Positions 804 to 14,579 of a DNA stretch of 64,000 bases are shown in pieces. The position numbers were made by a program, and so were the translations under genes. The DNA is from Minisyncoccia bacterium (GTDB lineage: Bacteria; Patescibacteriota; Minisyncoccia; Phycocordibacterales; UBA9973). Location of the stretch: assembly GCA_049287305.1 (NCBI GenBank), contig JBAQFO010000013.1, forward strand, positions 189-64,188, read 5' to 3'. Position 1 is the stretch's first letter. Every line of letters begins with the position of its first letter. Under the pieces are notes generated by a model. That model ran no database searches and was not told the origin of the DNA. It saw only the letters and a program-made list of their open reading frames with translations.

Positions 804-841
804 CGGCGGCGGAATGCGAGAATCGGCTATTACATAGCGGT
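804..841 (-). repeat. partial direct copy of the tRNA-Gly 3' end (GCGGNATGCGAGAATCG...CATAGCGGT); putative att-site remnant
   Basis: 804-826 gcggcggaatgcgagaatcgg matches the plus-strand sequence of the real tRNA 3' half at 19208-19226 (gcgggatgcgagaatcgaa) in the same orientation; the flanking 9-mer catagcggt (833-841) also matches 19279-19287 next to the tRNA 5' end. Confidence 0.4.
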
Positions 842-1082
842 GCCCCATCCGCGTCTCGGACGAGATGATATCAAGCAGTATAAGCGTTTTCCGAAGAATA
901 TTCAACCAGTTTCCTAACCCCTCCGCATAGGGGGTCATTTTTTGTAAATGAGACAAATGAGACACGAAAAGGGTGTCTTGGGCACTGTCTCATTTACAGA
1001 CTGAATAGACACAATAGACAGTATAAAAAGGGCAGTTTCGGTATCTCTGGACTCCAAAGCCAATCGGCGTCATCCATTAGGA

Positions 1083-1400
1083 ATGGACGATATCGAAGCC
1101 GTCATAGAAGCCAGCAAGCATTTGAGATTCGAAGAAAACGACCCGAAAGGTACGCTCAATCGTATTTCCAGTTTGCCCGAATCCAAAGCTCGGATTAAGC
1201 GGGCAATCAAGGAACGCATTCGGCTACTGACGGCATCGTACATTTCTCTGGCTTCCTTCGTGCCTGACGAGGATGCGGACTATGCCGCCGGGCTTTACGG
1301 CGAGCAAAGTAAAGAGCGGTTGACACGGATTTTCAGGAAAGTGCTCAAAGAAACGAACAGGCTCGAAAAGGAAATGAGGGACTTTGACCCGTTCAATTGA
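1083..1400 (+). CDS. hypothetical protein (island-encoded)
   Basis: ORF only; charged, helical-looking; no motif recognised. Confidence 0.4.
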   Translation: MDDIEAVIEASKHLRFEENDPKGTLNRISSLPESKARIKRAIKERIRLLTASYISLASFVPDEDADYAAGLYGEQSKERLTRIFRKVLKETNRLEKEMRDFDPFN

Positions 1401-1476: not shown

Positions 1477-2676
1477 ATGAAAGAGTATTTGCCAGAATGG
1501 AAGATATATTTGTGGAAAAAGCTGTTGCTCGATACTAGTGACTCGGACAGGGTATTTCAGCCCAACGATTTTATCTTCTTCGATACGGAGGACCAACAAC
1601 GCTTGGTATTGCTAAACGCACAAAAAGGCATTAACAGGATAAACTCATATACGATTGAACTCGCCAAAGGAGCAAAAACGGAAATCGGCGGTGCCGATGG
1701 GCCAAGCTCCGACCAGTATTATAAATTCGAGGTACGGAAGATCTTGTTAGCCCTCATTGAACTGGCCATCGAAGACCCTCGTTGTTTAAAGATCACAGAC
1801 ATCGAGCTAGGGAAAAAAGTGTTGCATGACTATCGCCAGAAAATGAAAGCCCGCCTGACGGATAAACAAAGAAGAGAGCTTGCAGTTCTTTCCATAACGG
1901 CTGGGCTTGGCGGACAACTACCTAAAAACGACCCCCTTCTTGTGGACCTTTTTTGCGGTTTACCGGAATACATATATAACAAAGTCGATAAAGGAGAGAA
2001 GCTCACGTTGCCAAATCTTGACATTCTAATTGACCAAACATCCGACGCAACCATCTTCTCTTCGCTTCGCTTCAAGCTCACCATAGACAAGAAAAATTTG
2101 CAGGCACGTCTAAACGCCTACGTCGCTGACTTTATAGCGGGCGAATTGATCCCGCCTCAAGGAGTTAGGCTCTTCATATTTGAGCAGCAGAAAAACAACA
2201 TCCTCGGTGCGATCCAGTCCTTAGCAGCGAGATACGGTAAAAAGAATATTGCGATAACTTTCGAGGAAGTCGCTCGGATTGGCGGTTGGGCGAACAAAGA
2301 TGAGCATCACTACCGATTTTATGAAACGATATTGGCTCTGGAGCAATTGGGAGAAATCGAAATAAAGGACCTACGGAAAGAAGAGGTTATCCTGTCGCTC
2401 GTAGAAAAAACCGTTCCGGAAAAAGAAAAAGTTGCCCCAGTAAAAGAGTTGTCCCCTGCGGATAAAAAGAAACTTTTCATTTTAGAGAAACTCAAAGAAG
2501 ATTGGGACTTGGCTCCCAAAGACGGGAGACAGGTGCAGCTTAAAATTTCTGGCGACCAGGTATATGAATGGATGATGGAACTCGGCATCAATTATTACTC
2601 GCTGGAAAACATCCTGCTTGGTTTCAAGAAAGAAGGCCTAATCATTAAGTACGAGTCGATAAACCCCGCCATGTAA
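1477..2676 (+). CDS. hypothetical protein, 399 aa (island-encoded)
   Basis: long ORF with typical coding composition; no recognisable motif. Confidence 0.5.
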   Translation: MKEYLPEWKIYLWKKLLLDTSDSDRVFQPNDFIFFDTEDQQRLVLLNAQKGINRINSYTIELAKGAKTEIGGADGPSSDQYYKFEVRKILLALIELAIEDPRCLKITDIELGKKVLHDYRQKMKARLTDKQRRELAVLSITAGLGGQLPKNDPLLVDLFCGLPEYIYNKVDKGEKLTLPNLDILIDQTSDATIFSSLRFKLTIDKKNLQARLNAYVADFIAGELIPPQGVRLFIFEQQKNNILGAIQSLAARYGKKNIAITFEEVARIGGWANKDEHHYRFYETILALEQLGEIEIKDLRKEEVILSLVEKTVPEKEKVAPVKELSPADKKKLFILEKLKEDWDLAPKDGRQVQLKISGDQVYEWMMELGINYYSLENILLGFKKEGLIIKYESINPAM

Positions 2677-2680: not shown

Positions 2681-3163
2681 ATGTCTAACGATTTATACAT
2701 ACAACTTCCAAATGACTTTGAAGAGCAGTACCTGAAATACAAGGCTGCTCTTTTGGGCGAAGAAATTAAGCCCGTGAAAACCGAGATTTTTCAGGAGGCA
2801 GATAAAAAATATTCCGACCTAAAAGAGCCGATAATGATAAAAACTTTGGGAATAGAAATTAGCGACTATTATATATCGAAGGGCAACGAAAAACGCGAAA
2901 TTAACGCTACAGATAAATGGCTCATATATTTCTTGTACTACAAATTTACGAAAAATAAAGACGAGTGTTTTAGACCCGAACGACTCGTGGCAGAAATGGA
3001 GGCGGAACTGGGCAAAAAAACTGAAAAATATATCGAAAATAGAATTGGGGAAATAAACAAACTGGTTAAAGAACTAATAGTAAAAGGCAGGACGAACATT
3101 GGAAAATTTATTAAGCACGAAAAAGGCCGCGGCTATCACTTAAATCCCAAAATTGTGATATAG
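2681..3163 (+). CDS. hypothetical protein, 160 aa (island-encoded)
   Basis: ORF starts 5 nt after the previous stop (operon-like); no motif recognised. Confidence 0.45.
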   Translation: MSNDLYIQLPNDFEEQYLKYKAALLGEEIKPVKTEIFQEADKKYSDLKEPIMIKTLGIEISDYYISKGNEKREINATDKWLIYFLYYKFTKNKDECFRPERLVAEMEAELGKKTEKYIENRIGEINKLVKELIVKGRTNIGKFIKHEKGRGYHLNPKIVI

Positions 3164-3257
3164 GCCACAAAATAATCCCAAGAAAATAAACGCTTGGGAA
3201 AATTCAATATTTTTTTCTCTGAAATACCTTTGTAAAATAAGGGTGTTTTTTAATATA

Positions 3258-3283
3258 TCACAAACAGGTCACAAAATTTGTGA
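3258..3283. promoter_or_regulatory. operator-like palindrome TCACAAA-a-TTTGTGA plus an upstream TCACAAA half-site, in the AT-rich region upstream of the methyltransferase operon
   Basis: perfect 7-bp inverted repeat with 1-nt spacer at 3269-3283; extra direct half-site at 3258-3264; lies in a 200-bp AT-rich intergenic region about 90 bp before the 3370 start. Confidence 0.3.
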
Positions 3284-3369
3284 TTCCTCTAGAAGTTAAA
3301 CTTAAGATAATTCTTTTCGAGAAGAAGATTATAAATTTTATTCACCTTCCTTTTCTCTAATCATACTAT

Positions 3370-4698
3370 ATGTCTAGAAAAAAGGAAAGCAAAAAACATA
3401 TGAGAGAAAATACATTACACGGAGAGAAGCTAACATGGGCGACGACGAGGCGAAAAGTCGTGGACTTGCTACCTAGTGGCTACAATCCACGAAAAATGAG
3501 CGAGAGTGAGCGTCGAGACCTCGAAGATTCCATTAAGGAGTTCGGTACGGTCGTGCCGGTGGTCTTGAATATCGGGACTAGAGATAACGTGCTCATAGGG
3601 GGCCACCAACGCGTCACCATTTATGCTGACCTCGGAATAAAAGAAGTCGATGCCATGGTGCCGAGCCGAGAGCTGAGCGAACAGGAAGAAAAAACGCTCA
3701 ACCTCCGGCTTAATAAAAATTTAGGAAGTTGGAACAATGAGCTCCTCAAGGAAATGGATATGGACTTGCTCCTCCATGTCGGATTTGACGACGAGGAATT
3801 GCAGGATTTGTTTGATGACGTGGACGTAATCGATGACGAGTTCGATGTCGAAAAAGCTATTAAAGAAACGAAGGTAGCGAAAGTGAAGCCGGGAGAAATC
3901 TGGCAGCTCGGCGAGCATCGGCTATTTGTAGGCGACTCGACAGACGCCGAAGGAGTGAAAAAATTAATGAACGGCGATCTGGCTGACGTCATATATTGTG
4001 ATCCGCCTTACAATATCGGCCTCGACTACTCCAAGGGGGTCGGCACCGATGGAAAGTATGAAGGCTCATACACCAGCAAAAAGGATTCCAAGAAAGATTC
4101 TGTCTATGCATCTTTCATTGACGCGAGCATCAAGGTGGCACTGGCAATTTCAAAACCAAATGCCCATATCTTCTACTGGTGCGACGAACGGTACATCTGG
4201 CTAACGCAAACGCTCTACCAGCAAAACAAAATCGACAGCAAGCGGGTGTGTTTGTGGATCAAAAATAATTTTAGCGTGACCCCGCAGGTGGCCTTCAACA
4301 AAGCATACGAGCCGTGCGTGTATGGAGTCATCGGGAAACCGCATCTCAATCGGAACTTCACCAATGCGAACGAACTCTTAAATCAGGAAATCGGGACGGG
4401 CAATCAGGTACACGAAGAAATTCTCGACATGATCAATCTCTGGATTGAAAAGAGGGACGCAGGACAGGACTACGCTCACCCTACGCAGAAGCCGGTGACC
4501 TTAAATGAAAAGCCTTTGAAAAGATGCAGTGCTCCAGGGCATATCGTCTTTTCCGGATTTGCCGGAAGCGGCAGCGACTTGATTGCCTGCGAGCAACTGA
4601 ATCGCAAATGGCGAGGAGTCGAACTCGATCCCATTTTTGCCACCGTCACTATTGACCGATGGGAGGCATTTACCAACCAAAAAGCGAAACTATTATGA
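3370..4698 (+). CDS. ParB-like nuclease (ParB/Srx) domain fused to an N6-adenine/N4-cytosine DNA methyltransferase
   Basis: N-terminal GGHQRV ParB-type motif; C-terminal DPPYNIG (motif IV of amino-MTases) and HPTQKP (AdoMet-binding motif I of the PF01555 family). Confidence 0.8.
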   Translation: MSRKKESKKHMRENTLHGEKLTWATTRRKVVDLLPSGYNPRKMSESERRDLEDSIKEFGTVVPVVLNIGTRDNVLIGGHQRVTIYADLGIKEVDAMVPSRELSEQEEKTLNLRLNKNLGSWNNELLKEMDMDLLLHVGFDDEELQDLFDDVDVIDDEFDVEKAIKETKVAKVKPGEIWQLGEHRLFVGDSTDAEGVKKLMNGDLADVIYCDPPYNIGLDYSKGVGTDGKYEGSYTSKKDSKKDSVYASFIDASIKVALAISKPNAHIFYWCDERYIWLTQTLYQQNKIDSKRVCLWIKNNFSVTPQVAFNKAYEPCVYGVIGKPHLNRNFTNANELLNQEIGTGNQVHEEILDMINLWIEKRDAGQDYAHPTQKPVTLNEKPLKRCSAPGHIVFSGFAGSGSDLIACEQLNRKWRGVELDPIFATVTIDRWEAFTNQKAKLL

Positions 4699-5453
4699 GT
4701 ACGACCATTAAGCAAGGAGACATATACAAGCTCGGAGAGCATATCATTGCCTGCGGCGATGCGTTGGATGCCAACTTTGTGAACAAGGTCATTGGCAACA
4801 GAAAAATCAGGGCGATACTTACAGACCCGCCGTATGGAGTCGACTATGTCCAAGGGAAAAAATATCTCAATCAAAAAATGGGGGTTGAGAGCGATAAGGA
4901 CATTGTCGGCGATCAACTGCAAACGGATGAAGAGTATGCGGAGTTCACTAGAAGCTGGCTCGGACTCGCCATTCCATATCTTGATTCATATAACGCCTGC
5001 TATATCTTCAACAGCGACCTGATGTTTCCCGCGCTCCGGCAAGGCATGAAACAAGCCGGATTCCATTACAGCCAGATGATCATCTGGCTCAAAAACCAAG
5101 TCGTCATGAATCGGAAAGACTATCTCATGATGTTCGAGTTAATCGCTTACGGCTGGTTCGGCAGGCACAAAATGGAGCGCTCGAAAGCAAAGAGCGTGCT
5201 TTTTCACCCGAAACCGAGTAAATCAAAACTGCACCCGACGCAAAAACCAGTGGGACTCTTGAGAAAGCTGATACCGAATTCTACGAAGATAAACGAATAT
5301 GTGTACGACCCGTTTCTTGGAAGCGGGAGTACGACCGTGGCTTGCGAACATCTCGGTCGAAGATGCATCGGCATAGATATTGATCCGGAATATGTGGCGA
5401 TAGCGATTGCCCGTGTGGAAAAGCTGACCGGCAAAAAAGCGGTAAAGGTATGA
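4659..5453 (+). CDS. DNA methyltransferase, N4/N6 (PF01555-like) family
   Basis: DPPYGV catalytic motif and HPTQKPVGLLRKLI AdoMet motif; start overlaps the previous gene by 40 nt (translational coupling). Confidence 0.8.
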   Translation: MGGIYQPKSETIMSTTIKQGDIYKLGEHIIACGDALDANFVNKVIGNRKIRAILTDPPYGVDYVQGKKYLNQKMGVESDKDIVGDQLQTDEEYAEFTRSWLGLAIPYLDSYNACYIFNSDLMFPALRQGMKQAGFHYSQMIIWLKNQVVMNRKDYLMMFELIAYGWFGRHKMERSKAKSVLFHPKPSKSKLHPTQKPVGLLRKLIPNSTKINEYVYDPFLGSGSTTVACEHLGRRCIGIDIDPEYVAIAIARVEKLTGKKAVKV

Positions 5454-5836
5454 GCGATGAATTTCCAAACCCAAAGAAATTCGGAGTGTACAAGACCCAA
5501 GACTTCGAGTCCTACGCTCTGTGGAAGGCGTTGCCCTCGTTCCTCCGGGGCCAGCCACGTCAAGTGCTTGAGAAATTCGGCATTGACGAGGAAATTGCGC
5601 TTGGCTTGCTTGAAATCAAAACGCAGGCCGAGTTCGCGAGGCGATTTAATATCAAGGATCCTGCAACTTTGACGGATTGGAACAAGAAATTGGAGAAGGA
5701 AGAAGTTATACCAAGAATCCACGCATGGGCCCGGAAGCTTACCCCGAACGTCATCTTTGCCCTCTACCGCACCGCGAGCAAACACGGCAAAGCACCCGAG
5801 GTAAAGGCGTGGCTGGAAATAGTGGAAGGCATGTAA
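5450..5836 (+). CDS. hypothetical small protein (phage-like, helix-rich; possibly DNA-binding)
   Basis: ATGA start/stop overlap with the upstream MTase gene; no definitive motif. Confidence 0.45.
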   Translation: MSDEFPNPKKFGVYKTQDFESYALWKALPSFLRGQPRQVLEKFGIDEEIALGLLEIKTQAEFARRFNIKDPATLTDWNKKLEKEEVIPRIHAWARKLTPNVIFALYRTASKHGKAPEVKAWLEIVEGM

Positions 5837-5842
5837 AAATAT

Positions 5843-6067
5843 ATGAAATATCCAAATTTAGAAAAATTAGGAGATAAAAACATGAACGCGGAAGACGTGG
5901 CGTCGATTCTTTCGCAGACTCTGAAGGATGTAGCGGCGAGAAAAATTACGCTCAGGTACGCACTTGTTGTATCCCGTCTCGCCCTCGCTCTGTCTAAAAC
6001 AATTGAAACGGTGGAACTGAAGAAGCGAGTGGAATTTATCGAGCAAGTTCTCAAAAAACGAAAATGA
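5843..6067 (+). CDS. hypothetical small protein
   Basis: 74-aa ORF; sits between coupled genes in the same orientation. Confidence 0.35.
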   Translation: MKYPNLEKLGDKNMNAEDVASILSQTLKDVAARKITLRYALVVSRLALALSKTIETVELKKRVEFIEQVLKKRK

Positions 6068-7575
6068 AAAACCTAGCTACTTTGTTGAAAAAAGGAGACC
6101 TGACTCCTAAGGAACGGATGCTCTTTCTGGTACACGATGCGGTAAGTAAGGACAAAACTGGCAAGGAAATTCTGACAGAAGCGGACAGGCACGCATTGTC
6201 GGAAGGATGGAAACCACTGCATGACCGCGAGGTAGACGAATATAACCGCTACAATAAAGGGTGGCGGACAGAGGGTTCCCTTCGACTGGATGCCCAGACT
6301 ACTTACTTGAACGCTCAAGTTTCCCTGCTGCGGTCGAGCAGGCTTCTCGACTACGCCATGTGGAGCGACTCCCTGCAAAAAGGAAATGGATTTGGGAAAA
6401 TACATCTCTATGTAGACGAAAACGAAGCGCTGGATCTTATCCTAAAAAATACCGGGCTTCGATTCGATCAATTTTTACATAGCTATACGTTTCAAAAAAT
6501 AGACGAGGACTTAAAAAAAGACATTTTAGCTCTCTACGAGGACGCGGGAACCGAAAGTCAGTACCTCGACCAGGAAGAAATTATCGCGGACTTGTTTAAT
6601 GGCACAGAACAGCTGACAGTGGAAGCAAAGGAAAAACTGGCTGACATAATCGCTGACGTGCCTCACAACAGATACGCCGAGCTTTTCAAGGAAAAAGGCA
6701 TGAAGTCTGGAGCATGGTGGTTCTATGGGTATTTCGCCGAACTGCCGACTTTGGAAATAGCGAAAAGGTGGGCAGACGAGAACGAGATCAGCTATGATGC
6801 CAATAGCGAAACCTTGGCGGAGGATTTGTCTCTCAAGATCCAAGATTATGCGGAGAAAAACAAAGTTGAGGTCAGAGAGCTATTAAGAAGAACCATCCGT
6901 AAATGGTTGGACGAGGGCTTGTTCGAAAAGAAGTACGTTCCTTTATGCAATAGTGCTGACAAAACTACGTGCAACGACAGCGACACTAAACTTCCCCACA
7001 TGGAGATTTTAAAAAGGTGGCTCAAAGCCAAGGACGAAGCAGAGGCAGAAATACAAAAACTGATAGATGCTGGGCAGTTGAAAGTTGAAGTCAGGGAAAA
7101 AGAAATTTTTGAATCAAAGGAGAGTATGAAAATAATAACGGGTGAGAGTTTGTATAACCTCCAAGGCGGTTTCGACTTCGCTCAAGATTTCAAAAACCAA
7201 GTTGAAGGCCTGAAGCCGCTCGATTGCCTCATTTTGTTTTTGCGAAACGGCGATTTCTTGAAGGGCTACGCTTCTCTCTTGGCCTTTGCCGATATTTACA
7301 AAAAACTATCGAGGCTTTACGAGATCGATTTGGGCTACAAAATAGACGGATTCATCAATGATTTCAAGAAAAGCATAGAACAGTTGAATGACGAACTGCG
7401 ATACCTTGCCGAAAAGTTGGAAGGAAATATTTACCGGGAAAACAACACCAAATTCCTGGCCGAGGTTTTCATGGACCGTATGCTTATTCGCCTGGAGGAC
7501 ATAGAGCCGGGAACGGACGAAACGGAAATGCACTATGCTCAAGAGTTTGAAAAAATATTTCTGAATTTATTTTAA
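6064..7575 (+). CDS. hypothetical protein, 503 aa
   Basis: ATGA overlap with the upstream ORF; long acidic, helical ORF; no motif recognised. Confidence 0.5.
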   Translation: MKNLATLLKKGDLTPKERMLFLVHDAVSKDKTGKEILTEADRHALSEGWKPLHDREVDEYNRYNKGWRTEGSLRLDAQTTYLNAQVSLLRSSRLLDYAMWSDSLQKGNGFGKIHLYVDENEALDLILKNTGLRFDQFLHSYTFQKIDEDLKKDILALYEDAGTESQYLDQEEIIADLFNGTEQLTVEAKEKLADIIADVPHNRYAELFKEKGMKSGAWWFYGYFAELPTLEIAKRWADENEISYDANSETLAEDLSLKIQDYAEKNKVEVRELLRRTIRKWLDEGLFEKKYVPLCNSADKTTCNDSDTKLPHMEILKRWLKAKDEAEAEIQKLIDAGQLKVEVREKEIFESKESMKIITGESLYNLQGGFDFAQDFKNQVEGLKPLDCLILFLRNGDFLKGYASLLAFADIYKKLSRLYEIDLGYKIDGFINDFKKSIEQLNDELRYLAEKLEGNIYRENNTKFLAEVFMDRMLIRLEDIEPGTDETEMHYAQEFEKIFLNLF

Positions 7576-7619
7576 TCACAAACAGCAAAAGACTGCGTGT
7601 AGCACCGCAGCCCCCGCCG

Positions 7620-8867
7620 GTAACATATTCTTTTAGTGGAGGCCGTCAGTTAGTGAACTTTAATAATGAACTATGCGACTAGAACTTAATGCGATCCGGA
7701 AACATGAGCGTCAACTGGGCCATGATTTCTCCCCAATTAAAGCAGGACTTCTCCCATCTCTCGGAGATGTCGGCTTGAGCGAGCCAGAGCAGTTTGACTA
7801 AAGCGTCATCGTGCGGGAAGACCTGGGTAGTCTTGGTTACTTTCCTAAACTGGCGGTTCAGATTTTCAATCGTGTTCGTGGTATAGATCATTCTCTTGAC
7901 CACTTGAGGATAGCCGAAAAACGGAGAAATATCGCTCCAGCGATTCTCCCAACTTTGCAGGTATGAGATGTACTGTGGCCACTGTTTTTCCATTTCTTTC
8001 AGGGCTTGGAGTCCGGCGTCTTCTGTCGCGGCGGTGTATACCGCTTTTAGATAATCGGCAAATTTCTTCCTGTCTTTGTTGGAGATGAACATCAGAGTGT
8101 GCCGGATTTGATGGACGACGCAGACCTGGACTTCCGTTCTTGGGAAAATGGTCTTAATGGCGTCGGGAAATCCTTTGAGTCCATCGACACAAGCGATAAG
8201 TATATCATCGACGCCCCTATTTTTTAACTCGTTCAGAACATGCATCCAGAATTTTGCGCCTTCTGTTTCACTGATCCAGATACCTAGGATTTCTCTGTGA
8301 CCATAGAGGTTAATGCCGAGAGCGATGTAGGCAACCTTTGAAGAGATTTTCCCGGCTTCACGAACTTTGAAGTGCATCCCATCCAAGTAAAGAATTGGGT
8401 AGCAGGAAGACAGCGGCCTGGCTTGCCACTCTTTCACAAGCGGAAACACTTTGTCGGTAATCGCGGAGATAGCAGGCTGTGATATTTCCATCTTGTTCGC
8501 TCGCTTCAGGAAATTGGAAATATCTCTGGTGGTTAATCCTTTAGCATAGAGGTCTATGATCATCGCCTCGGTTTCGTTGCCCACCAAGTCATACCACGGA
8601 CTGCGACTATTTGCTTCTTCCGGTAGATCAGGTTGGGAATTTGTCGGGATTAGGCTCGTCTGTTTGGGTTCGGATGGGAACGATTCTACCATGATGGTTT
8701 CTTCACTAATTTCAGGTTTTTCCTGCAATGCTGAAAGTTCCTTAGCCATCGCCAGAATTTCCTCAGGACTATTAATTTTCCGTATCTTGGTTTGATACCC
8801 GTACGGCAGGGTACTTATTTTATTTTTCATATGTTTGGTCGACCTGCCACCTAAAGAACGGTGTCAC
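7620..8867 (-). mobile_element. IS256-family insertion sequence (about 1.25 kb) with imperfect terminal inverted repeats
   Basis: left end 7620-7649 GTAACATATTCTTTTAGTGGAGGCCGTCAG; reverse complement of right end 8836-8867 is GTGACACCGTTCTTTAGGTGGCAGGTCGACCA; the two align as imperfect IRs flanking the transposase. Confidence 0.65.
7679..8830 (-). CDS. IS256 family (mutator-type) transposase
   Basis: 383 aa; conserved mutator-transposase pattern (ILYLDGMHFKVRE ... ACVDGLKGFPDAI ... VQVCVVHQIRHTL ... YTTNTIENLNRQFRKVTK). Confidence 0.9.
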   Translation of the reverse strand: MKNKISTLPYGYQTKIRKINSPEEILAMAKELSALQEKPEISEETIMVESFPSEPKQTSLIPTNSQPDLPEEANSRSPWYDLVGNETEAMIIDLYAKGLTTRDISNFLKRANKMEISQPAISAITDKVFPLVKEWQARPLSSCYPILYLDGMHFKVREAGKISSKVAYIALGINLYGHREILGIWISETEGAKFWMHVLNELKNRGVDDILIACVDGLKGFPDAIKTIFPRTEVQVCVVHQIRHTLMFISNKDRKKFADYLKAVYTAATEDAGLQALKEMEKQWPQYISYLQSWENRWSDISPFFGYPQVVKRMIYTTNTIENLNRQFRKVTKTTQVFPHDDALVKLLWLAQADISERWEKSCFNWGEIMAQLTLMFPDRIKF

Positions 8868-9734: not shown

Positions 9735-10667
9735 ATGAAAACACTTGTCAGCATCACTCTCTCCATCATCCTGCCTTTCATGGGTCTCACGGCCCAGGCG
9801 GCGGATTCTCCGCAGCCGAAGAGCAAGGCATTCTGCCTCTCCGCCGTCACTAAGGGTCTGGTGACCGCGAACCCGAAGGCGAAGACCTGGTCCACTTCGA
9901 AACCCGAGCAGCAACGCTTCATGTCCACCTATTACGACGGCGCAGTCGCCGATCTGCACAAGGTGGACGATGACAAAGTTCTGCAGGCGATCGCCACAGG
10001 CAGTTCGGCGAAACTCCAGGACTTCTTTGCCAAAGGCGGCTTCGCTAACATGCCGGTCCGAATCCCGGCGGGCGGACACGCGGTCGGAGTGCTGTTCGAT
10101 CTGCTCGTCGACTGGAAAACGGTCGGTGAGCAGAAGGACATCTCCATTCGTCGACCTCAGGGAGGTTACGACGATTACTCCGGCGCTCAGATGCTCGAGT
10201 TCGAGGCCTTCAGTCTCGAGGGTCACAAGTATCCGCTTTTCCGGATCGAGACACGCCAAGGCTGGGACGTCTACCTGGTGGAAGCCGCCGATGGCGAGAA
10301 TCTCCAGGCTTCCGACTTTCCCGCGCGCGCGAAAGCTCTCCTCGGCCTTCCTCGCGAAGAGGCGGACTACGAGAAGCTGAACTTCCCGAGCGTCCTGATG
10401 TCTGCCGATGTGGACATTTCATGGATGGTTGGGATGCGCGTTCCCGGATTCTCGATCGACGAGGCGGTGAAGAAGATCAAGCTTCGTCTCGACGAGAAAG
10501 GTGCACGTGCCCAGTCCGCTGTCGCTTTCACGACTCGTGGCATGGACTCGTCCTACACCATCCAGAGGTCTTTCTACGTGATCTTCACGCGTGAAGGCCT
10601 CAACTTTCCGCCGTTCGTCGCCCTTGCGGCGCCCGATTCCTGGGTGAAGCAGGGCAGCAACGACTAA
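9735..10667 (+). CDS. secreted hypothetical protein (high-GC insert)
   Basis: N-terminal signal peptide MKTLVSITLSIILPFMGLTAQA-AD; plausible SD (aaaaggaacg) upstream; 310 aa; no recognisable domain. Confidence 0.55.
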   Translation: MKTLVSITLSIILPFMGLTAQAADSPQPKSKAFCLSAVTKGLVTANPKAKTWSTSKPEQQRFMSTYYDGAVADLHKVDDDKVLQAIATGSSAKLQDFFAKGGFANMPVRIPAGGHAVGVLFDLLVDWKTVGEQKDISIRRPQGGYDDYSGAQMLEFEAFSLEGHKYPLFRIETRQGWDVYLVEAADGENLQASDFPARAKALLGLPREEADYEKLNFPSVLMSADVDISWMVGMRVPGFSIDEAVKKIKLRLDEKGARAQSAVAFTTRGMDSSYTIQRSFYVIFTREGLNFPPFVALAAPDSWVKQGSND

Positions 10668-10720
10668 CCCTCAACCCGAGGGACGCGCCACAAGCCGCTC
10701 CTCAAAACACCTCTGGAGGT

Positions 10721-11209
10721 ATGACCATGAAGCTTTGGAAAAAGCTCGCAATCGTTCTCGTGTTCATCGCTGCTGCTGTTGAAACCCTCTTCATTGGAGG
10801 TGCCTACGCTGTCGCGGCGAAAGCTCGCTCGGAGGCTGCGGTGGCACAACAGGAAGCAAAGGACATTGAGGTCCGGGCTCGTCGCCGCGTCGAAGCCTGC
10901 GAAGCGGACGCGCGAAAAACAATGGACCGGCTCGCCGCCAAGGACGCGGAGCTCTTCCTCAAAAAGGAGCTCGGCCTCGATGCCGACTATCCCATGAATG
11001 ATCGAGTGAAGGAGGAGACGGAGTTGTACGTATGGTTTCTTGAAGCCGATCTTGAATCGCTCGACAGTTTTATCAAAGGGCGAGAAGATCAGTTCGACTT
11101 CAATCAAACGTACAAACGCCAGCAGAAGATCAATACCTTCTACCTCGAAAAAATCTACGATGCGGCAAGGCGGTGCGGCATTCACATCCGACCGTACCCC
11201 GGTCGCTGA
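10721..11209 (+). CDS. membrane-anchored hypothetical protein (high-GC insert)
   Basis: N-terminal hydrophobic helix KKLAIVLVFIAAAVETLFIGGAYAVAA followed by a charged, helical domain; GGAGG upstream. Confidence 0.5.
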   Translation: MTMKLWKKLAIVLVFIAAAVETLFIGGAYAVAAKARSEAAVAQQEAKDIEVRARRRVEACEADARKTMDRLAAKDAELFLKKELGLDADYPMNDRVKEETELYVWFLEADLESLDSFIKGREDQFDFNQTYKRQQKINTFYLEKIYDAARRCGIHIRPYPGR

Positions 11210-11234
11210 AAGCACTTTAGTTTGTTATCACCCC

Positions 11235-11272
11235 GAGGCCGGCGTTCGAAAGGACGCTGGCCTCATTTTTTT
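11235..11272 (+). terminator. rho-independent terminator closing the high-GC insert
   Basis: GAGGCCGGCG-ttcgaaagga-CGCTGGCCTC stem-loop followed by ATTTTTTT. Confidence 0.6.
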
Positions 11273-11384
11273 AATAAGATTGATAGATTGTTCGGAATCT
11301 CTTATAATATATGGGTCCTCTATAATTTTGAATAGGTACACATTTGCCCTTATTCTCAAAAAGATAGATGGATAAATTAAATTT

Positions 11385-12425
11385 ATGCTTGAATCCCGAA
11401 GAGAATTTTTTAAACATCTAACTTTACCAAAAAACGAAACCCGTTCTATTGGCAACGCGACAGCAGCTAAAAACCCACTTGAAAGAACAGCTTCACGCCG
11501 AGATTTCATTAAAGTTCTAGGCATTGTTGCTACTGCACTTGCAATTCCAGAAGATATTTATGCCAGAAAGAGAGACAAAAGAAACCAAGCGATTGAGAAA
11601 GAGGGTTCATTCATTACCCCCGAACAGCTGCGAAAAATGGTGCTCACAGATAACTCAGAGCGCGTTTTTATCCGTTTTCCGAACTCGCCGCGCCTATACG
11701 AGATAACGGACCGGAGCCAAAACTTGATTGCATTCGCGCGAGGCGCGATGACCCCGGAAACTGAGAAAATGCTAGAGCAGTCAGATGAGTTTACGAAAAT
11801 TCATACGCATCCCTTAGGAATTTACGGCATAGCTGGATATACTCCCGATGAAATTGACGCGGCGCGGGAAGGCCTGATGCCAGTTCCTCTCTCCATGCCG
11901 CCAAGCATCCCGGATCTTCTGAGCGCAAAGATAATTAGCCAAATTGAAGGTATGGGAGAGCCGATCCGAGTGAATCAAGAAATCTATGGCACAGATGGCA
12001 TTTGGCGTTTTAAAGGCGGAGCAGACAGCGTTTTGCTTACGGAAATCGAGCAAGTAAACCAAGAACTTGTAAATATCTTCTCGGATTTCCGAAAAACTCT
12101 TCCTGCCAATCTTCAAGGACCCTACGACAAAATCATCCACCTTGCTGAAAATGAGGGCGATGCCCGCCAAGGATTTGTCTGCCGGAATATAAACGAGCTT
12201 ACGAAAAATCCAACATTTGCTCCTTACCTTCCCCTTTTGGAAGAAAAACTTGCAAAATTATCTTTGGAGTACAAAGAAACTTTCGCTCTTATGGAAGAGA
12301 TGACCGCGCTGAGCATTGCCATGACACACCCGGAACAACGTGATGCGGCACTACAGAGATATTTGGCAATTGTAGAAAAAGAAGGTTTTGAAATTAAATT
12401 TGAGCCATATAAAATCCATGTTTGA
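11385..12425 (+). CDS. hypothetical protein with a Tat-type signal (true start may be internal)
   Basis: SRRDFIKVLGIVATALAIP twin-arginine motif about 35 aa into the ORF; no catalytic motif. Confidence 0.5.
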   Translation: MLESRREFFKHLTLPKNETRSIGNATAAKNPLERTASRRDFIKVLGIVATALAIPEDIYARKRDKRNQAIEKEGSFITPEQLRKMVLTDNSERVFIRFPNSPRLYEITDRSQNLIAFARGAMTPETEKMLEQSDEFTKIHTHPLGIYGIAGYTPDEIDAAREGLMPVPLSMPPSIPDLLSAKIISQIEGMGEPIRVNQEIYGTDGIWRFKGGADSVLLTEIEQVNQELVNIFSDFRKTLPANLQGPYDKIIHLAENEGDARQGFVCRNINELTKNPTFAPYLPLLEEKLAKLSLEYKETFALMEEMTALSIAMTHPEQRDAALQRYLAIVEKEGFEIKFEPYKIHV

Positions 12426-12993
12426 AAGACTTTGGAAAAATAAAGAAGCAAGGGCGGTTGACGAAGCTCTTGTAAAAAAGAAAGTATTCCATGGTAATGT
12501 TGCCGTGCCCTCAATACCTGGTGATTCACTAGAAAATTTTAGTCCGGATTTGGAACGCAGTATAGAGCATAATATTGAAATGTTTTTAGGTCCCTTGGTT
12601 TCAGGAAAAGGAGAAGAAATACCTGTTCTTACCAGAAGAGCCGACGATGGGAAAATTAGTCAAGAAATGGTTGCTCATGCGGAAGTAGATTTTGAAAGCG
12701 GCGAGATTATTAAGTTTACTGGGAAAGGTCTAGATAATCCAAAACGCGAGACAAAAGTAACTTTTTTTCTAGCTCTCGGACCTTATGATACAGCGGAGAT
12801 AGCTTATAGAGAACAGTTCAACAGGAAAGGAAAAGGATATATGAGTTTCTCTATTTCTTCCCTTGAATGGGAGTTCCAGCGTAATTGGCCGCAATTATCT
12901 GAAAAAGCAAAACGGGTACTTGAAGCTTCGGTTCAAAGATATAATTCAAAGAGCGGAGCACAACCGCCTGACCCGAAGTACTTTAAGAATTAA
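12388..12993 (+). CDS. hypothetical protein
   Basis: ORF overlaps the previous gene by 38 nt in another frame. Confidence 0.45.
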   Translation: MKLNLSHIKSMFERLWKNKEARAVDEALVKKKVFHGNVAVPSIPGDSLENFSPDLERSIEHNIEMFLGPLVSGKGEEIPVLTRRADDGKISQEMVAHAEVDFESGEIIKFTGKGLDNPKRETKVTFFLALGPYDTAEIAYREQFNRKGKGYMSFSISSLEWEFQRNWPQLSEKAKRVLEASVQRYNSKSGAQPPDPKYFKN

Positions 12994-13068
12994 TGGCTTA
13001 CTATTGCTTTTTTACTCAACTATGTTATAATATACAAATAAGGATTGCTAAATACATGAATTAAAAAT

Positions 13069-13959
13069 ATGGGAATGGAAGGACCAAACAGAACACAAGC
13101 CACAGAGGCAAAACAGCCGCCTAAGTTTAACCCCGAACCCGGTCGGCTGGATCGAAGGTTTTTAAGACAAGGAGACACCTTTTCTATTAGAGACTCTGCA
13201 GGAAATTTTTATGATTTTGCTCTAGAACCGGAACGCGTTCCTGGTGTTGTGCGGGCTAAATGCGTAAGAACTAACAACAAGCATTTTATGGGAGCGACAG
13301 GCAATCTTGCCGACATGAAAGAGGGGCAGCCATTCCGGATGTTCAGCGAGACTGCCCGCTGGGAAACAAATCCTGTTGATCAAGTGAAAGTTTCTAAGCG
13401 AGAGCTTAACGTGCTTTCCGCTATTCCAGGAAGTTGCGTGACTGTACAGGGCGAGGATGGTCGCTGGTATTCCTTTGAAATTCTTACCCGGGATATCCCC
13501 GGTCAGAAAATTGAATGGAAATGCGTGGCAGCTTCACCCGGAGAAGAGATGTTTGTGGGAACGTATGAAAATATTCCACCTCCAACCATTAAAGCGGGCG
13601 AAGAATTTTCCTTTGGGGGTAATCCGGCAAACAAGATCCGGGTTAAGGATGTAGAGTTTGAACTTAGTGTTCGCCCGGAAAGAGTTTTGGGGCTAAAGTT
13701 TAAAGAATTAATTGAAATGAGCATAGATTCTTCCCAGGATTCGGATCGGTTCGCGGAAGAACTTCGGGCATTACCAGATAAAATAATCGAGAGACTAAAA
13801 ACAATAGTGCAAGGTAAAATCTTGCCATTAAGCAGCGATCCGACAGCTCTGAAAAAAGATACTGCAAAAAGAAATGAATTGAGAATGTATACAGTCAAAG
13901 CATCGGCCATACAAAATGAAAGCGACGAAAGGGCTAAAAGATCCCGCAAGCAATCTTAA
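13069..13959 (+). CDS. hypothetical protein, starts MGMEGP
   Basis: ORF; its 5' end shares a 25-bp identical sequence with the next gene. Confidence 0.5.
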   Translation: MGMEGPNRTQATEAKQPPKFNPEPGRLDRRFLRQGDTFSIRDSAGNFYDFALEPERVPGVVRAKCVRTNNKHFMGATGNLADMKEGQPFRMFSETARWETNPVDQVKVSKRELNVLSAIPGSCVTVQGEDGRWYSFEILTRDIPGQKIEWKCVAASPGEEMFVGTYENIPPPTIKAGEEFSFGGNPANKIRVKDVEFELSVRPERVLGLKFKELIEMSIDSSQDSDRFAEELRALPDKIIERLKTIVQGKILPLSSDPTALKKDTAKRNELRMYTVKASAIQNESDERAKRSRKQS

Positions 13960-14016
13960 ATTCTGTGTTATGATATAAAGGTCGAGATTATTAAACTAAA
14001 AATATGAATTAAAAAT

Positions 14017-14406
14017 ATGGGAATGGAAACACGGAAAACCGAAAAAGAGCAGTGGCAGGAAAAAACCGCTCTAGCTAAAAATTTTCAGCTAACTCCTGAT
14101 ATGAGCGGAGATTTCACGCGACTTCGTTCAACGCTTGGACTACATCACCATTTTACAGGTCCGGCTACTCCCCAACGAATTGAGGAGTTTGTTGTGGGAA
14201 AAATTGAAGAAGAACGCGGTATGCAGCAGAGCCGTGAGGCAAGCCCCGCAGAGACTTCTGGGAAGGGATATGGAGCAGAAGAAGCTCAAAGTAAGGCAGA
14301 ATATTTTACTGAAAGCCTAAGATTGCTGGAAAGATTCCTTGCAAGACACGGCGGAGACAATGCTCGTGCAAGATTAGGCATTGAAAAAGACGAAGCTTTA
14401 GGTTAG
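14017..14406 (+). CDS. hypothetical protein, starts MGMETR
   Basis: ORF; 5' end atgaattaaaaatatgggaatggaa identical to the 5' end of 13069. Confidence 0.45.
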   Translation: MGMETRKTEKEQWQEKTALAKNFQLTPDMSGDFTRLRSTLGLHHHFTGPATPQRIEEFVVGKIEEERGMQQSREASPAETSGKGYGAEEAQSKAEYFTESLRLLERFLARHGGDNARARLGIEKDEALG

Positions 14407-14556: not shown

Positions 14557-14579
14557 AATGTATGTATGGAACATACATT
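14557..14579. promoter_or_regulatory. perfect 9-bp inverted repeat AATGTATGT-atgga-ACATACATT overlapping the recombinase start; candidate recombinase binding/att core or operator
   Basis: read directly from sequence; the annotated ATG (14566) lies in the 5-nt spacer. Confidence 0.35.

What the first reader, a model, noticed from the sequence alone, without database searches (positions are those of the whole stretch)
3370..7575. Translationally coupled five-gene operon: ParB-domain/MTase fusion, second MTase and three unknown proteins
Successive genes overlap (4659 starts 40 nt before the 4698 stop; ATGA overlaps at 5450/5453 and 6064/6067), so the five products are probably made together. Two different amino-methyltransferases (DPPYNIG/HPTQKP and DPPYGV/HPTQKP) sit together with no recognisable restriction endonuclease, helicase or specificity subunit. 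ParB/Srx-MTase fusions are typical of phages and plasmids, where they self-methylate DNA to evade host restriction. The three downstream proteins (128, 74, 503 aa) are unassignable. They could be structural/packaging phage genes, or the effector part of an uncharacterised MTase-associated defence module.
Basis: partly seen in the sequence, partly recalled or inferred. Interest (0 to 1): 0.6.

Follow-up and report, generated by a model that had tools for sequence, protein, structure and literature searches.

The report
Backbone operon of a CPR mobile island
The five genes are real and co-transcribed, and they form the conserved core of an 18-kb mobile island inserted in a tRNA gene of an ultra-small (CPR) bacterium: two anti-restriction DNA methylases plus three proteins unlike anything known, two of which mark a whole undescribed family of small mobile DNA elements.

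Summary
Five same-strand ORFs lie at 3370-7575. Three junctions are ATGA overlaps and one is a 6-nt gap. The second gene most likely starts at 4695, not 4659. Both methyltransferases are intact beta-class DPPY enzymes, and the first carries a ParB/Srx domain. No nuclease partner is present.

The block is neither a defence system nor a prophage module. It lies in an 18.4-kb island (about 826-19207) inserted in the T-loop of tRNA-Gly(CCC). The island is flanked by a 17-nt copy of the tRNA 3' end. Related groundwater contigs show the empty site. It also carries a large serine recombinase, an IS256-type transposase gene and a KAP NTPase.

The same collinear block recurs in 12 other non-redundant loci from Saccharibacteria, Kaiserbacteria, Parcubacteria and Minisyncoccia, usually followed by a serine recombinase and a tRNA gene. 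The p74-p503 pair also occurs without the methylases, including on circular 7.65-kb contigs and permuted ~9.2-kb contigs that carry a tyrosine integrase and a primase.

p503 gives a confident all-helical model with no match in PDB, BFVD, Pfam, PHROGs or PADLOC.

Best reading: this is the backbone operon of an undescribed family of CPR integrative elements. The roles of p128, p74 and p503 are inferred, not shown.

The parts
809..825 (.). Left island boundary: a 17-nt direct copy of the 3' end of tRNA-Gly (GCGGAATGCGAGAATCG). It is the displaced host copy (attL-side repeat).
   Evidence: It is repeat D9. The sequences were read, and 16 of 19 positions match 19208-19226. It is identical to the tRNA 3' end in the empty-site contigs L033 and L034.
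931..995 (+). Conserved left-end segment with three AATGAGACA repeats (two direct, one inverted, at 947-994). It is a candidate protein-binding site (origin, operator or recombination arm).
   Evidence: It is 86% identical to L022 2823-2888 at the same position relative to the o399 homologue. Four copies of the 9-mer occur in the window, three of them here, and none of 100 shuffles reached four.
1083..1400 (+). o105, a small ORF of unknown function. It is absent from the closest related element, L022.
   Evidence: A homologue lies next to a reverse-transcriptase gene in L003.
1477..2676 (+). o399, the variable upstream-module protein (no known family). It sits where other elements carry primase, helicase or Rep-like genes.
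   Evidence: Homologues are found only in L022, L019 and L003. There is no Pfam, PHROG, PADLOC or NCBIfam hit.
2681..3163 (+). o160, a small basic protein of the upstream module.
   Evidence: Homologues occur in L012 and L022. No family hit was found.
3164..3369 (+). Intergenic leader of the operon, carrying the palindrome ATCACAAA...CACAAAATTTGTGAT. It is a candidate promoter/operator.
   Evidence: The sequence was read. Function is inferred only.
3370..4698 (+). ParB/Srx-domain + beta-class amino-methyltransferase fusion (GGHQR, DPPYNI, HPTQKP, FAGSGS).
   Evidence: Pfam N6_N4_Mtase 7.7e-22. phrog_498 4e-91 and phrog_620 ParB-like 9e-27. PADLOC MTase_II 1.5e-60. The motifs are conserved in 14 loci.
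4695..5453 (+). Second, stand-alone beta-class amino-methyltransferase (DPPYGV, HPTQKP, FLGSGS). It is 27% identical to the MTase half of gene 1.
   Evidence: Pfam N6_N4_Mtase 8.9e-33. The nearest solved structures are CcrM, DpnA and MboIIA. The start at 4695 follows.
5450..5836 (+). p128, a very strongly conserved basic helical protein with a helix-turn-helix-like core (…EFARRFNIKDPATLTDWNKK…).
   Evidence: There are 198 homologues of 119-148 aa, the 120 listed being 66-91% identical, none with a Pfam domain. Weak HTH hints come from MarR, HTH_28 and RacR. The AF2 model is all-helical with pLDDT 64.7. There is no PDB fold or phage match.
5843..6067 (+). p74, a small basic helical protein (pI 9.9). 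It is the minimal form of a domain that in other elements follows an N-terminal Zn-knuckle (DUF5763).
   Evidence: blastp against L023_111, L024_123, L016_123 and L018_129 gives 4e-23 to 2e-5. The sequences are shown.
6064..7575 (+). p503, an acidic (pI 4.95), almost all-helical protein with no recognisable fold, family or catalytic motif. Together with p74 it is the hallmark of the element family.
   Evidence: AF2 gives pLDDT 91.6 and pTM 0.80. There is no Foldseek hit in PDB or BFVD and no PDB sequence hit. Pfam, PHROGs, PADLOC and NCBIfam give no significant hit. The family has 262 representatives among 1.84 billion proteins.
7679..8830 (-). IS256/Mutator-family transposase gene lying between p503 and the cargo and recombinase genes. 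Its insertion-sequence ends were not found.
   Evidence: Pfam Transposase_mut 6e-84. Related transposase genes lie downstream of p503 in L022 and L003.
9735..14406 (+). Cargo ORFs (310, 162, 346, 201, 296 and 129 aa) with no significant family match. The 8-12 kb stretch has higher G+C (0.50-0.52).
14566..15885 (+). Large serine recombinase (Resolvase + Recombinase + Zn_ribbon_recom), the presumed integrase of the island.
   Evidence: Pfam hits. phrog_95 integrase 5e-60. It is 52-58% identical to the recombinases that follow p503 in L002, L004, L014 and L021.
15894..19052 (-). KAP-family P-loop NTPase (defence-type cargo) lying between the recombinase and the tRNA.
   Evidence: Pfam KAP_NTPase 1.5e-40. 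PADLOC PDC-S20 5e-24 and PifA 2e-17.
19207..19278 (-). tRNA-Gly(CCC), the integration target and right island boundary (its 3' end faces the island).
   Evidence: ARAGORN and Rfam. The empty site, with grx about 72 bp from this tRNA, is seen in L033 and L034.

Best explanation
The five genes are one translationally coupled operon. It is the conserved backbone of a mobile genomic island (window about 826-19207, 18.4 kb) integrated into the T-loop region of tRNA-Gly(CCC) of a Minisyncoccia (CPR/Patescibacteria) bacterium.

Shown:
- The island is an insertion. It has a tRNA-end direct repeat, and relatives show the empty site.
- It carries a large serine recombinase.
- The same block recurs, followed by a serine recombinase and usually a tRNA gene, in many CPR genomes.
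- One such element is base-for-base identical in two different Saccharibacteria hosts.
- The p74-like + p503-like pair is the invariant signature of the family. It also sits on 7.65-kb circular contigs and permuted ~9.2-kb contigs that carry a tyrosine integrase and a primase (and, in the 9.2-kb type, a helicase).

Inferred:
- The two orphan beta-class DPPY methyltransferases, probably m6A enzymes with two different targets, methylate the element and the host chromosome. This would let the element survive restriction when it enters a new cell, and would make it compatible with the restriction systems that such islands themselves carry.
- p128 is a sequence-specific helix-turn-helix DNA-binding protein, either a regulator or a DNA-recognition factor.
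- Basic p74 and acidic p503 form a non-enzymatic complex that the element needs for its own propagation in the excised state. Most likely this is origin recognition or recruitment of host replication proteins, or episome maintenance. Less likely it is transfer.

The block is not a defence effector and not a phage head or packaging module.
For: **Operon anatomy.**

**Methylases.**

**Island borders.** A 17-nt copy of the tRNA 3' end lies at 809-825 against 19209-19225. The empty site, with grx next to tRNA-Gly and the same 3'-end sequence as the left copy, is seen in L033 and L034.

**Serine recombinase and its tRNA neighbours.**
- The recombinase itself.
- A minus-strand tRNA lies from -61 to +113 nt of the recombinase stop in L002, L004, L008, L012, L013 and L023.
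- It lies within 1.4-3.3 kb in L014, L021 and the window.

**Recent transfer.** A 9.7-kb element is identical in L004 and L005. All 13 mismatches of the alignment fall in the host tRNA-Ser, and the flanks are only about 70% identical.

**Block conservation.** The block is conserved in 12 further non-redundant loci from four CPR lineages.

**p74-like + p503 without methylases.**
- Next to Prim-Pol or Toprim primases and a serine recombinase in L016, L018 and L023.
- On contigs L025-L029, which have terminal overlaps with a period of about 7.65 kb.
- On permuted ~9.2-kb contigs.

**Not a phage.** No phage structural gene is present in the island. p128, p74-like and p503 have no phage or plasmid homologues.

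**p503 looks non-enzymatic.** The invariant residues are mostly aromatic or hydrophobic, there is no P-loop, and the pI is 4.95.
Against: - No function of p128, p74 or p503 is demonstrated. All structure and profile searches were negative, so the replication/maintenance role rests only on gene neighbourhood and on the pair's presence in minimal episomes.
- An acidic protein is not typical of replication initiators.
- Excision or a circular form of the serine-recombinase type was not observed directly.
- In the window a KAP NTPase gene lies between the recombinase and the tRNA. An IS256-type transposase gene separates p503 from the recombinase, so this copy may be rearranged or immobile.
- The hosts of the circular contigs are not established.
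- Two loci (L016, L020) are labelled as Gammaproteobacteria MAGs, so restriction to CPR is not certain.
- L003 and L019 carry the block without a detectable serine recombinase.
- Methylation targets and activity are untested.
Confidence: 0.7

Rival explanations
1. Phage-satellite or virus-like module. The block would be a packaging/morphogenesis cassette. p128 would act as a small-terminase-like DNA-recognition protein. p74, p503 and the variable ~380-400-aa neighbour would be structural or helper-hijacking proteins, so the element would spread in particles (its own or a helper phage's).
For: - In real phages the ParB-MTase sits just upstream of the packaging genes. In Streptococcus phage Javan117 the order is ParB-MTase, a 259-aa protein, a 131-aa small terminase, the large terminase, then the portal. 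This mirrors the order and sizes seen here.
- p128 has an HTH with a '...TL.DWNK' motif like that small terminase.
- On the small replicons, once replication and integration genes are set aside, p74-like, p503 and a fast-evolving ~380-aa protein are the main unexplained genes.
- The circular contigs recur in many samples.
Against: - The hhalign probability for p128 against the phage small terminase is 1.5%, which is not significant.
- p503 has a confident model but matches no portal, terminase or capsid structure in PDB or BFVD.
- There are no PHROG hits and no relatives in IMG/VR or INPHARED.
- p503 is hydrophilic and acidic. No capsid-like or membrane protein was recognised in the elements.
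Confidence: 0.15
2. MTase-associated defence or anti-defence system. The methylases would mark self DNA, and p128, p74 and p503 would sense or attack unmethylated invaders. Alternatively, acidic p503 would be a DNA-mimic anti-restriction protein.
For: - These islands are rich in defence cargo: KAP NTPase, GmrSD, type I and type III R-M systems, and reverse transcriptases.
- p503 is strongly acidic.
- The genes are co-translated with two methylases.
Against: - PADLOC gives no match for any of the three proteins.
- No nuclease, NTPase or other effector signature or fold was found.
- p74-p503 persist where the methylases are absent, and they sit at a fixed backbone position next to replication and integration genes, even on a 7.65-kb circular contig. 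Defence genes on mobile elements are normally variable cargo.
Confidence: 0.07
3. Addiction (toxin-antitoxin-like) module. The small basic p74 would be a DNA-binding antitoxin translationally coupled to a large toxin, p503, stabilising the element in its host.
For: - The small-then-large order with a 4-nt overlap is conserved everywhere.
- Ten longer p503 homologues carry a weak RHH-antitoxin-like insert (DUF6290). One was labelled 'post-segregation antitoxin' by a source.
Against: - No toxin family or catalytic motif was found.
- At 500-600 aa p503 is far larger than usual toxins.
- Its invariant residues are structural rather than catalytic.
- The DUF6290 hits are weak (best 0.0047) and confined to insertions in some members.
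Confidence: 0.06
4. Ordinary prophage anti-restriction cassette inside a complete tailed prophage.
For: ParB-MTase fusions are common in tailed phages.
Against: - The island is only 18.4 kb with defined borders and has no terminase, portal, capsid, tail or lysis gene.
- Related elements are as small as 9.7 kb.
- p503 has no relatives in phage collections.
Confidence: 0.02

Closest known systems
Phage and plasmid orphan ParB/Srx-DNA methyltransferase fusions (PHROG 498; for example the 'DNA modification methylase' of Streptococcus phage Javan117 and Faecalibacterium phage FP_Epona)
   Same: The domain architecture is the same, the match runs over the full length at about 30% identity, and there is no cognate nuclease. 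The location is on a mobile element at the head of a co-directional gene block.
   Different: Here the fusion is always paired with a second, only 27% identical, stand-alone methylase. It is followed by three proteins with no phage counterparts. The carrier is a small integrative element of CPR bacteria, not a tailed phage.
tRNA-integrated genomic islands and integrative elements driven by tyrosine integrases (P4-type islands, many prophages; from general knowledge)
   Same: Insertion is at the 3' end of a tRNA gene, and the tRNA is regenerated by an element-borne copy. A direct repeat lies at the far end, and the integrase gene sits next to the tRNA. Cargo rich in defence genes is carried.
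   Different: In most loci the recombinase is a large serine recombinase, whose known targets are, to my recollection, mostly protein-coding genes. In three loci the last 13-61 nt of its ORF overlap the tRNA. Tyrosine-integrase relatives exist within the same family.
Staphylococcal cassette chromosome (SCC) elements with Ccr serine recombinases
   Same: These are small non-conjugative islands moved by large serine recombinases. From general knowledge they also carry their own primase/helicase-type replication genes. The best NCBIfam match of the window's recombinase is CcrB (1.5e-32).
   Different: The CcrB score is far below the family cut-off (113 against 900 bits). The target here is a tRNA gene rather than rlmH. 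The backbone genes (methylases, p128, p74, p503) are unrelated.
Phage-inducible chromosomal islands and other phage satellites
   Same: The size is similar (about 10-18 kb), and an integrase sits at one end. A replication module with a primase is present in several relatives. The operon is co-directional, and a small HTH protein occupies the position where satellites carry a small-terminase homologue.
   Different: No demonstrable small-terminase, capsid-redirecting or helper-interference genes were found. No helper phage is known. The hallmark proteins are unrelated.

Membership tests
Beta-class N6/N4 amino-DNA methyltransferases (Pfam PF01555) | The domain matches above the curated threshold in both proteins. 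| tested here: met
   78.8 and 114.5 bits against a cut-off of 26.7. The nearest solved relatives are CcrM, DpnA, MboIIA and RsrI.
Beta-class N6/N4 amino-DNA methyltransferases (Pfam PF01555) | The catalytic motif IV (D/S-P-P-Y) lies before the AdoMet motif I (FxGxG), which is the beta permutation. Both motifs are intact. | tested here: met
   DPPYNI ... FAGSGS in gene 1 and DPPYGV ... FLGSGS in gene 2. The motifs are conserved in 14 loci, with DSPY in three.
Beta-class N6/N4 amino-DNA methyltransferases (Pfam PF01555) | Methyl transfer to DNA at a defined target sequence. | not testable with these tools
   This needs methylome data or an enzyme assay.
ParB/Srx-MTase fusion (PHROG 498) | An N-terminal ParB/Srx-like domain fused to the methylase. 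| tested here: met
   phrog_498 at 4e-91 over residues 7-440 and phrog_620 ParB-like at 9e-27. Spo0J gives 8e-4. Pfam ParB_N is just below threshold in this copy (22.9 against 26.3 bits), but is listed as an unmarked (E-value at most 1e-5) hit in homologues of L004 and L006.
Restriction-modification system | A cognate restriction endonuclease (and a specificity subunit, for type I) encoded next to the methylase. | tested here: not met
   None of the five products nor the neighbours o399 and o160 matches a nuclease, helicase or HsdS family.
Known MTase-linked defence systems (BREX, DISARM and others in PADLOC) | Signature non-MTase components recognised by PADLOC models. | tested here: not met
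   p128, p74 and p503 give 0 PADLOC families. The methylases hit only generic MTase_II and orphan-MTase models.
Tailed prophage | Terminase, portal, major capsid and tail genes within the integrated element. | tested here: not met
   No Pfam or PHROG structural hit was found for any island ORF. The p503 model matches no portal, terminase or capsid structure.
tRNA-integrated site-specific integrative element (genomic island) | A site-specific recombinase gene inside the element. | tested here: met
   A large serine recombinase at 14566-15885 carries the Resolvase, Recombinase and Zn_ribbon_recom domains.
tRNA-integrated site-specific integrative element (genomic island) | A direct repeat of the tRNA 3' end at the distal border. 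| tested here: met
   809-825 against 19209-19225 matches at 16 of 17 positions. The analogous exact 19-nt repeat occurs in L005. Both repeats end at the T-loop GATTCG.
tRNA-integrated site-specific integrative element (genomic island) | An unoccupied site in related genomes. | tested here: met
   In L033 and L034 the grx homologue lies about 72 bp from the tRNA-Gly, against 18.4 kb in the window.
tRNA-integrated site-specific integrative element (genomic island) | Evidence of mobility: the same element in different genomes, or an excised circle. | tested here: inconclusive
   A relative is identical in two hosts (L004/L005). Tyrosine-integrase relatives occur as circular contigs. No excised form, and no second copy, of the window's own island was seen.
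Integrative conjugative or mobilisable element | A relaxase, coupling protein or type IV secretion genes. | tested here: not met
   No such Pfam family is present in the island. The only hint is a non-significant TraK_N match (0.0065, no stretch passing on its own) in the 296-aa cargo ORF.
SCC-type elements (Ccr recombinases) | A recombinase that is an equivalog of CcrA, CcrB or CcrC, and integration in rlmH. | tested here: not met
   CcrB scores 113 bits against a cut-off of 900. The target here is a tRNA gene.
Phage satellite (PICI-like) | A small-terminase or capsid-redirecting gene homologous to those of helper phages. | tested here: inconclusive
   p128 has no PHROG hit. hhalign against a phage small terminase gives a probability of 1.5%. 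Only the gene order is similar.

The most novel reading that the evidence does not exclude
The p74-like + p503-like gene pair defines a previously undescribed lineage of mobile elements of CPR/Patescibacteria. The lineage alternates between small (7.6-9.2 kb) circular episomes and tRNA-integrated islands. It swaps freely between tyrosine integrases and tRNA-T-loop-targeting large serine recombinases. Its hallmark protein has a new fold and performs a core element function by a mechanism not represented in known plasmids or viruses, either a new kind of replication initiator or adaptor, or the particle or transfer protein of a capsid-less virus-like agent.
Probability: 0.4. Interest if true: 0.75.

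Novelty: new variant of a known kind. Interest (0 to 1): 0.58.

Why it matters
CPR/Patescibacteria make up a large share of bacterial diversity, yet their mobile elements are barely known. [quoted passage not shown]

This locus gives a handle on a widespread family: 262 p503 clusters at 50% identity and 330 p74-like clusters at 90% identity. It comes with defined ends, an identified target (tRNA T-loops), recombinases of two kinds, free circular relatives, and evidence of very recent transfer between different hosts.

It shows how these tiny-genome bacteria acquire defence cargo such as R-M systems, GmrSD, KAP NTPases and reverse transcriptases. It also shows how the elements might shield themselves, with two orphan methylases.

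On the practical side, tRNA-targeting serine recombinases and small self-replicating circles are candidate tools for integration or shuttle vectors in a group with almost no genetic tools. Finally, p503 is a confidently modelled protein with no detectable fold relatives, and it is tied to a testable biological role.

Tried and rejected
**Searches on p503 that found nothing useful**
- Pfam, PHROGs, PADLOC and NCBIfam.
- A profile search against PDB sequences.
- Foldseek against PDB and BFVD, best E-values 0.32 and 0.016 with TM below 0.15.
- tblastn against INPHARED phages and PLSDB plasmids.
- An IMG/VR scan.
- A per-member Pfam scan of 74 homologues. It gave only scattered weak hits, with DUF6290 in 10 long variants.

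**Searches on p128 and p74 that found nothing useful**
- A PDB profile search for p128.
- Foldseek on a mediocre p128 model, pLDDT 64.7.
- tblastn of p128 against phages.
- hhalign of p128 against a phage small terminase, not significant.
- tblastn of the p74-like protein against phages. The family search returned 330 unnamed proteins.

**Readings rejected**
- p503 as a portal, terminase or capsid protein. A confident model would have matched the many solved examples.
- p503 as a P-loop NTPase. The conserved 'TGKE' lies between helices and does not fit a Walker A motif.
- The phage protein that follows the ParB-MTase in Javan117 as a homologue of the second methylase. It is not.
- The ~380-400-aa proteins that follow p503 on the circle as one family. 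jackhmmer finds no link between subfamilies.

**Other dead ends**
- The 11-mer ATCACAAACAG that flanks the operon (3257 and 7575) is within chance expectation.
- Inverted repeats for the IS256 copy could not be found.
- Literature searches found no description of this element family.

Full report
**1. The observation**

The window holds five + strand ORFs at 3370-4698, 4659-5453, 5450-5836, 5843-6067 and 6064-7575. Reading the junctions directly shows ATGA overlaps at 5450/5453 and 6064/6067, and a 6-nt spacer between the 128-aa and 74-aa genes. A third ATGA lies at 4695/4698. The public assembly calls the gene from 4695, and the homologues align from that residue.

Gene 1 combines a ParB/Srx-like N-terminal domain with an N6_N4_Mtase domain (Pfam 7.7e-22; phrog_498 4e-91 over the full length). 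Gene 2 is a stand-alone N6_N4_Mtase (8.9e-33). Both have the beta-class order DPPY ... HPTQKP ... FxGSGS. The DPPY motif suggests N6-adenine methylation; this rests on general knowledge of the family and was not tested. The nearest solved relatives are CcrM, DpnA and MboIIA. No nuclease, helicase or specificity subunit is present.

**2. Organism and surroundings**

The 503-aa protein is identical to a protein of a Minisyncoccia (CPR/Patescibacteria) MAG. Downstream of the operon lie the following:
- an IS256/Mutator-family transposase gene on the opposite strand (7679-8830);
- six ORFs without family matches, in a stretch of higher G+C;
- a large serine recombinase (14566-15885);
- a KAP-family NTPase of the PifA/PDC-S20 defence type (15894-19052, minus strand);
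- tRNA-Gly(CCC) (19207-19278, minus strand).

No ORF of this stretch matches a phage structural or lysis family.

**3. The block lies in an inserted island**

A 17-nt copy of the 3' end of the tRNA (GCGGAATGCGAGAATCG, one mismatch) lies at 809-825, between a glutaredoxin gene and the first island ORF. I searched metagenomes for the tRNA carrying the sequence of the left copy. This returned groundwater contigs (L033, L034) in which the glutaredoxin homologue sits about 72 bp from the tRNA-Gly, against 18.4 kb in the window. In those contigs the tRNA 3' end equals the window's left copy.

The segment from about 826 to 19207 is therefore an insertion at the tRNA, with the crossover at the T-loop (…GATTCG|). 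A related element (L005) shows the same pattern: an exact 19-nt copy of the tRNA-Ser 3' end, ending at the same T-loop position.

**4. The block is the conserved backbone of a family of elements**

Neighbourhoods of p503 homologues and a scan of species-representative genomes gave 12 further non-redundant loci. Each has the same five genes in the same order, at 65-75% nucleotide identity. They come from Saccharibacteria, Kaiserbacteria, Parcubacteria-group and Minisyncoccia MAGs.

Identity to the window's proteins varies by gene:
- ParB-MTase: 52-80%.
- Second MTase: 46-82%.
- p128: mostly 63-85%.
- p74: 43-70%.
- p503: only 31-55%.

A large serine recombinase follows in the same orientation. 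It comes directly after p503 in most loci, or after cargo as in the window and L004. A minus-strand tRNA gene follows the recombinase. It lies from -61 to +113 nt of the recombinase stop in six loci (tRNA-Leu, Ser, Gln, Asn, Asn, Asn). It lies 1.4-3.3 kb away in three, including the window. In L008, L012 and L013 the last 13-61 nt of the recombinase ORF overlap the tRNA.

The module upstream of the block varies. It holds o399/o160 homologues, a Prim-Pol-type primase-helicase, a Rep_O-like protein, or R-M and GmrSD genes. Cargo is often defence-related (type I and III R-M, GmrSD, KAP NTPase, reverse transcriptase).

One 9.7-kb element is identical in two Saccharibacteria assemblies. All 13 mismatches of the alignment fall in the host tRNA-Ser, and the flanks are about 70% identical or unalignable. 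That indicates recent horizontal transfer.

**5. The deeper core is p74 + p503**

More distant p503 homologues (L016, L018, L023) have no ParB-MTase. L016 and L018 also lack p128 and any methylase, while L023 keeps one methylase and a truncated p128. All are still preceded by a protein whose C-terminal half is homologous to p74 (blastp 4e-23 to 2e-5). In L016 and L018 that protein also has an N-terminal Zn-knuckle (DUF5763). A Prim-Pol or Toprim primase lies upstream and a serine recombinase follows.

Two further subfamilies sit on small permuted contigs.
- Contigs L025-L029, from different samples, have terminal overlaps of 114-767 bp with a period of about 7.65 kb. They are circular permutations of one gene set: a PC4-like protein, a tyrosine integrase, MerR, an HTH_17/excisionase-like protein, p74-like, a 580-aa p503 homologue, a 380-aa protein, and a DnaG-type primase.
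- A ~9.2-kb type adds a DnaB-like helicase.

The p74-like family has 330 clusters, mostly on contigs under 10 kb. The p503 family has 262 representatives at 50% clustering among 1.84 billion proteins. The ~380-400-aa protein that follows p503 on the circle is not detectably conserved between subfamilies.

**6. What the unknown proteins look like**

- **p503.** It is acidic (pI 4.95) and hydrophilic. Its AlphaFold2 model is confident (pLDDT 91.6, pTM 0.80) and almost entirely helical, with one beta-hairpin. It has no significant Foldseek match in PDB or BFVD. It has no sequence match in PDB, Pfam, PHROGs, PADLOC or NCBIfam. It has no relative in phage, plasmid or IMG/VR collections. Its invariant residues are mostly aromatic or hydrophobic (W49, N61, Y167, P293, W319, L339, G360, L363, F372). 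This argues for a scaffold or adaptor rather than an enzyme; that is an inference.
- **p128.** It is basic and helical with an HTH-like core. Only weak, sub-threshold HTH hits were found, and it has no fold or phage match.
- **p74.** It is a small basic helical protein ending in KKRK.

**7. Mechanism**

Shown: an operon on a tRNA-integrated island with a serine recombinase; a conserved backbone across CPR lineages; free circular relatives.

Inferred:
- The two orphan methylases protect the element and host DNA against restriction on entry, and against R-M cargo.
- p128 binds specific DNA. Candidate sites are the AATGAGACA repeat cluster at 947-994, conserved in L022, and the palindromic leader at 3164-3369.
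- p74 and p503, always adjacent (their ORFs overlap by 4 nt or lie within a few nt wherever gene calls are available), form a complex that serves the element's own propagation. I favour replication or maintenance of the excised form, for two reasons. The pair is invariant even on a 7.65-kb replicon, and it always lies within one or two genes of primase or helicase genes where these exist.

I put the 'mobile-element backbone' reading at about 0.85 on its own. The specific replication/maintenance role stands at about 0.3. The whole statement, taken together, stands at 0.7.

**8. Rivals**

- **Virus-like or satellite packaging module (0.15).** The gene order mirrors real phages, where the ParB-MTase precedes the small and large terminases. 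But the similarity of p128 to a small terminase is not significant, and p503 matches no virion protein.
- **MTase-linked defence or anti-defence system (0.07).** Contradicted by the backbone position, the persistence of p74-p503 without methylases, and the absence of any effector signature.
- **Addiction module (0.06).** There are weak RHH-like inserts in some homologues but no toxin features.
- **Ordinary prophage (0.02).** Contradicted by gene content.

**9. Comparison with known systems, and novelty**

The methylases are ordinary members of known families: the beta-class PF01555, and the ParB-MTase fusion of PHROG 498. The island is a site-specific integrative element at a tRNA gene, which is a known kind. 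It differs in three ways. It uses a large serine recombinase aimed at tRNA T-loops; from my own knowledge this is unusual for serine integrases, and I could not confirm it in the literature searches. Within the family, serine and tyrosine recombinases are interchanged. Its backbone proteins have no known relatives.

I found no description of this family in the searchable literature. One survey notes that CPR plasmids are rarely studied.

Verdict: a new variant of a known kind, of moderate to good interest (0.58). It would be higher if the p74-p503 pair proves to carry out a core element function by a new mechanism.

Noticed in passing
window 14566-19278; L002, L004, L008, L012, L013, L014, L021, L023: Large serine recombinases sit next to, and read towards, the 3' end of a tRNA gene in nine loci, covering tRNA-Gly, Leu, Ser, Gln and Asn. 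In L008, L012 and L013 the last 13-61 nt of the recombinase ORF overlap the tRNA, so integration would change the recombinase C-terminus. In two cases the repeats end at the T-loop GATTCG. tRNA targeting is, to my knowledge, unusual for serine integrases.
   Followed up: partly
L004 5946-15631 against L005/L009 5946-15631: A 9.7-kb element (393-aa protein, the five-gene block, PAS/GAF cargo, serine recombinase) is base-for-base identical in two Saccharibacteria assemblies. Their tRNA-Ser genes differ at 13 positions and their flanks are about 70% identical, which indicates very recent horizontal transfer.
   Followed up: yes
L024-L029 (period about 7.65 kb) and L030/L031 (about 9.2 kb): L025-L029 have terminal overlaps and all these contigs have circularly permuted gene orders; they come from several metagenomes. 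They carry p74-like and p503-like genes with a tyrosine integrase, MerR, an excisionase-like HTH_17 protein and a DnaG-type primase, plus a DnaB-like helicase in the larger type. They look like free episomal relatives. Their host is not established. The only link is integrase similarity to a 5-kb contig binned as Saccharimonadales (L017).
   Followed up: partly
window 15894-19052 (- strand): A 1052-aa KAP-family P-loop NTPase resembling the PifA and PDC-S20 defence proteins lies inside the island, between the recombinase and the tRNA. Its stop codon is 8 nt from the recombinase stop.
   Followed up: partly
window 7679-8830 (- strand); L022 9953-11035; L003 16467-17714: An IS256/Mutator-family transposase gene lies just downstream of p503 in three related elements (75% and 71% nucleotide identity to the window's copy in L022 and L003). 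In the window it separates the operon from the cargo and recombinase. No terminal inverted repeats or target duplication could be identified.
   Followed up: partly
window 947-994: Three copies of AATGAGACA (two direct, one inverted) cluster about 120 bp inside the left island end. The segment is 86% conserved at the same position in L022. It may be an origin, operator or recombinase arm site.
   Followed up: partly
window 3257-3267 and 7575-7585: The 11-mer ATCACAAACAG occurs 103 nt upstream of the first start codon and again starting at the last base of the p503 stop codon, so it brackets the operon. Statistically this is within chance expectation.
   Followed up: partly
window 1083-1400; L003 20795-21097; L019 15162-16346: The small o105 ORF is absent from the closest related element (L022). 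It has a 37% identical homologue in L003 directly upstream of a reverse-transcriptase gene fragment. L019 also carries a 394-aa RVT_1 protein as cargo. This may be a retron- or DRT-type defence module or its remnant.
   Followed up: no
window 8000-12000: The segment has G+C of 0.50-0.52 against about 0.41-0.44 elsewhere. It holds ORFs (189, 310 and 162 aa) without any significant family match. It looks like separately acquired cargo.
   Followed up: no
L010 and L021 (both on contig PLSR01000017.1): One Kaiserbacteria contig carries two different copies of the element family about 110 kb apart, with serine recombinases of different clades (31% and 52% identity to the window's).
   Followed up: no
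L016, L020: Two loci with p503 homologues (36-37% identical) come from MAGs labelled Gammaproteobacteria. Either the contigs are mis-binned or the family reaches beyond CPR bacteria.
   Followed up: no
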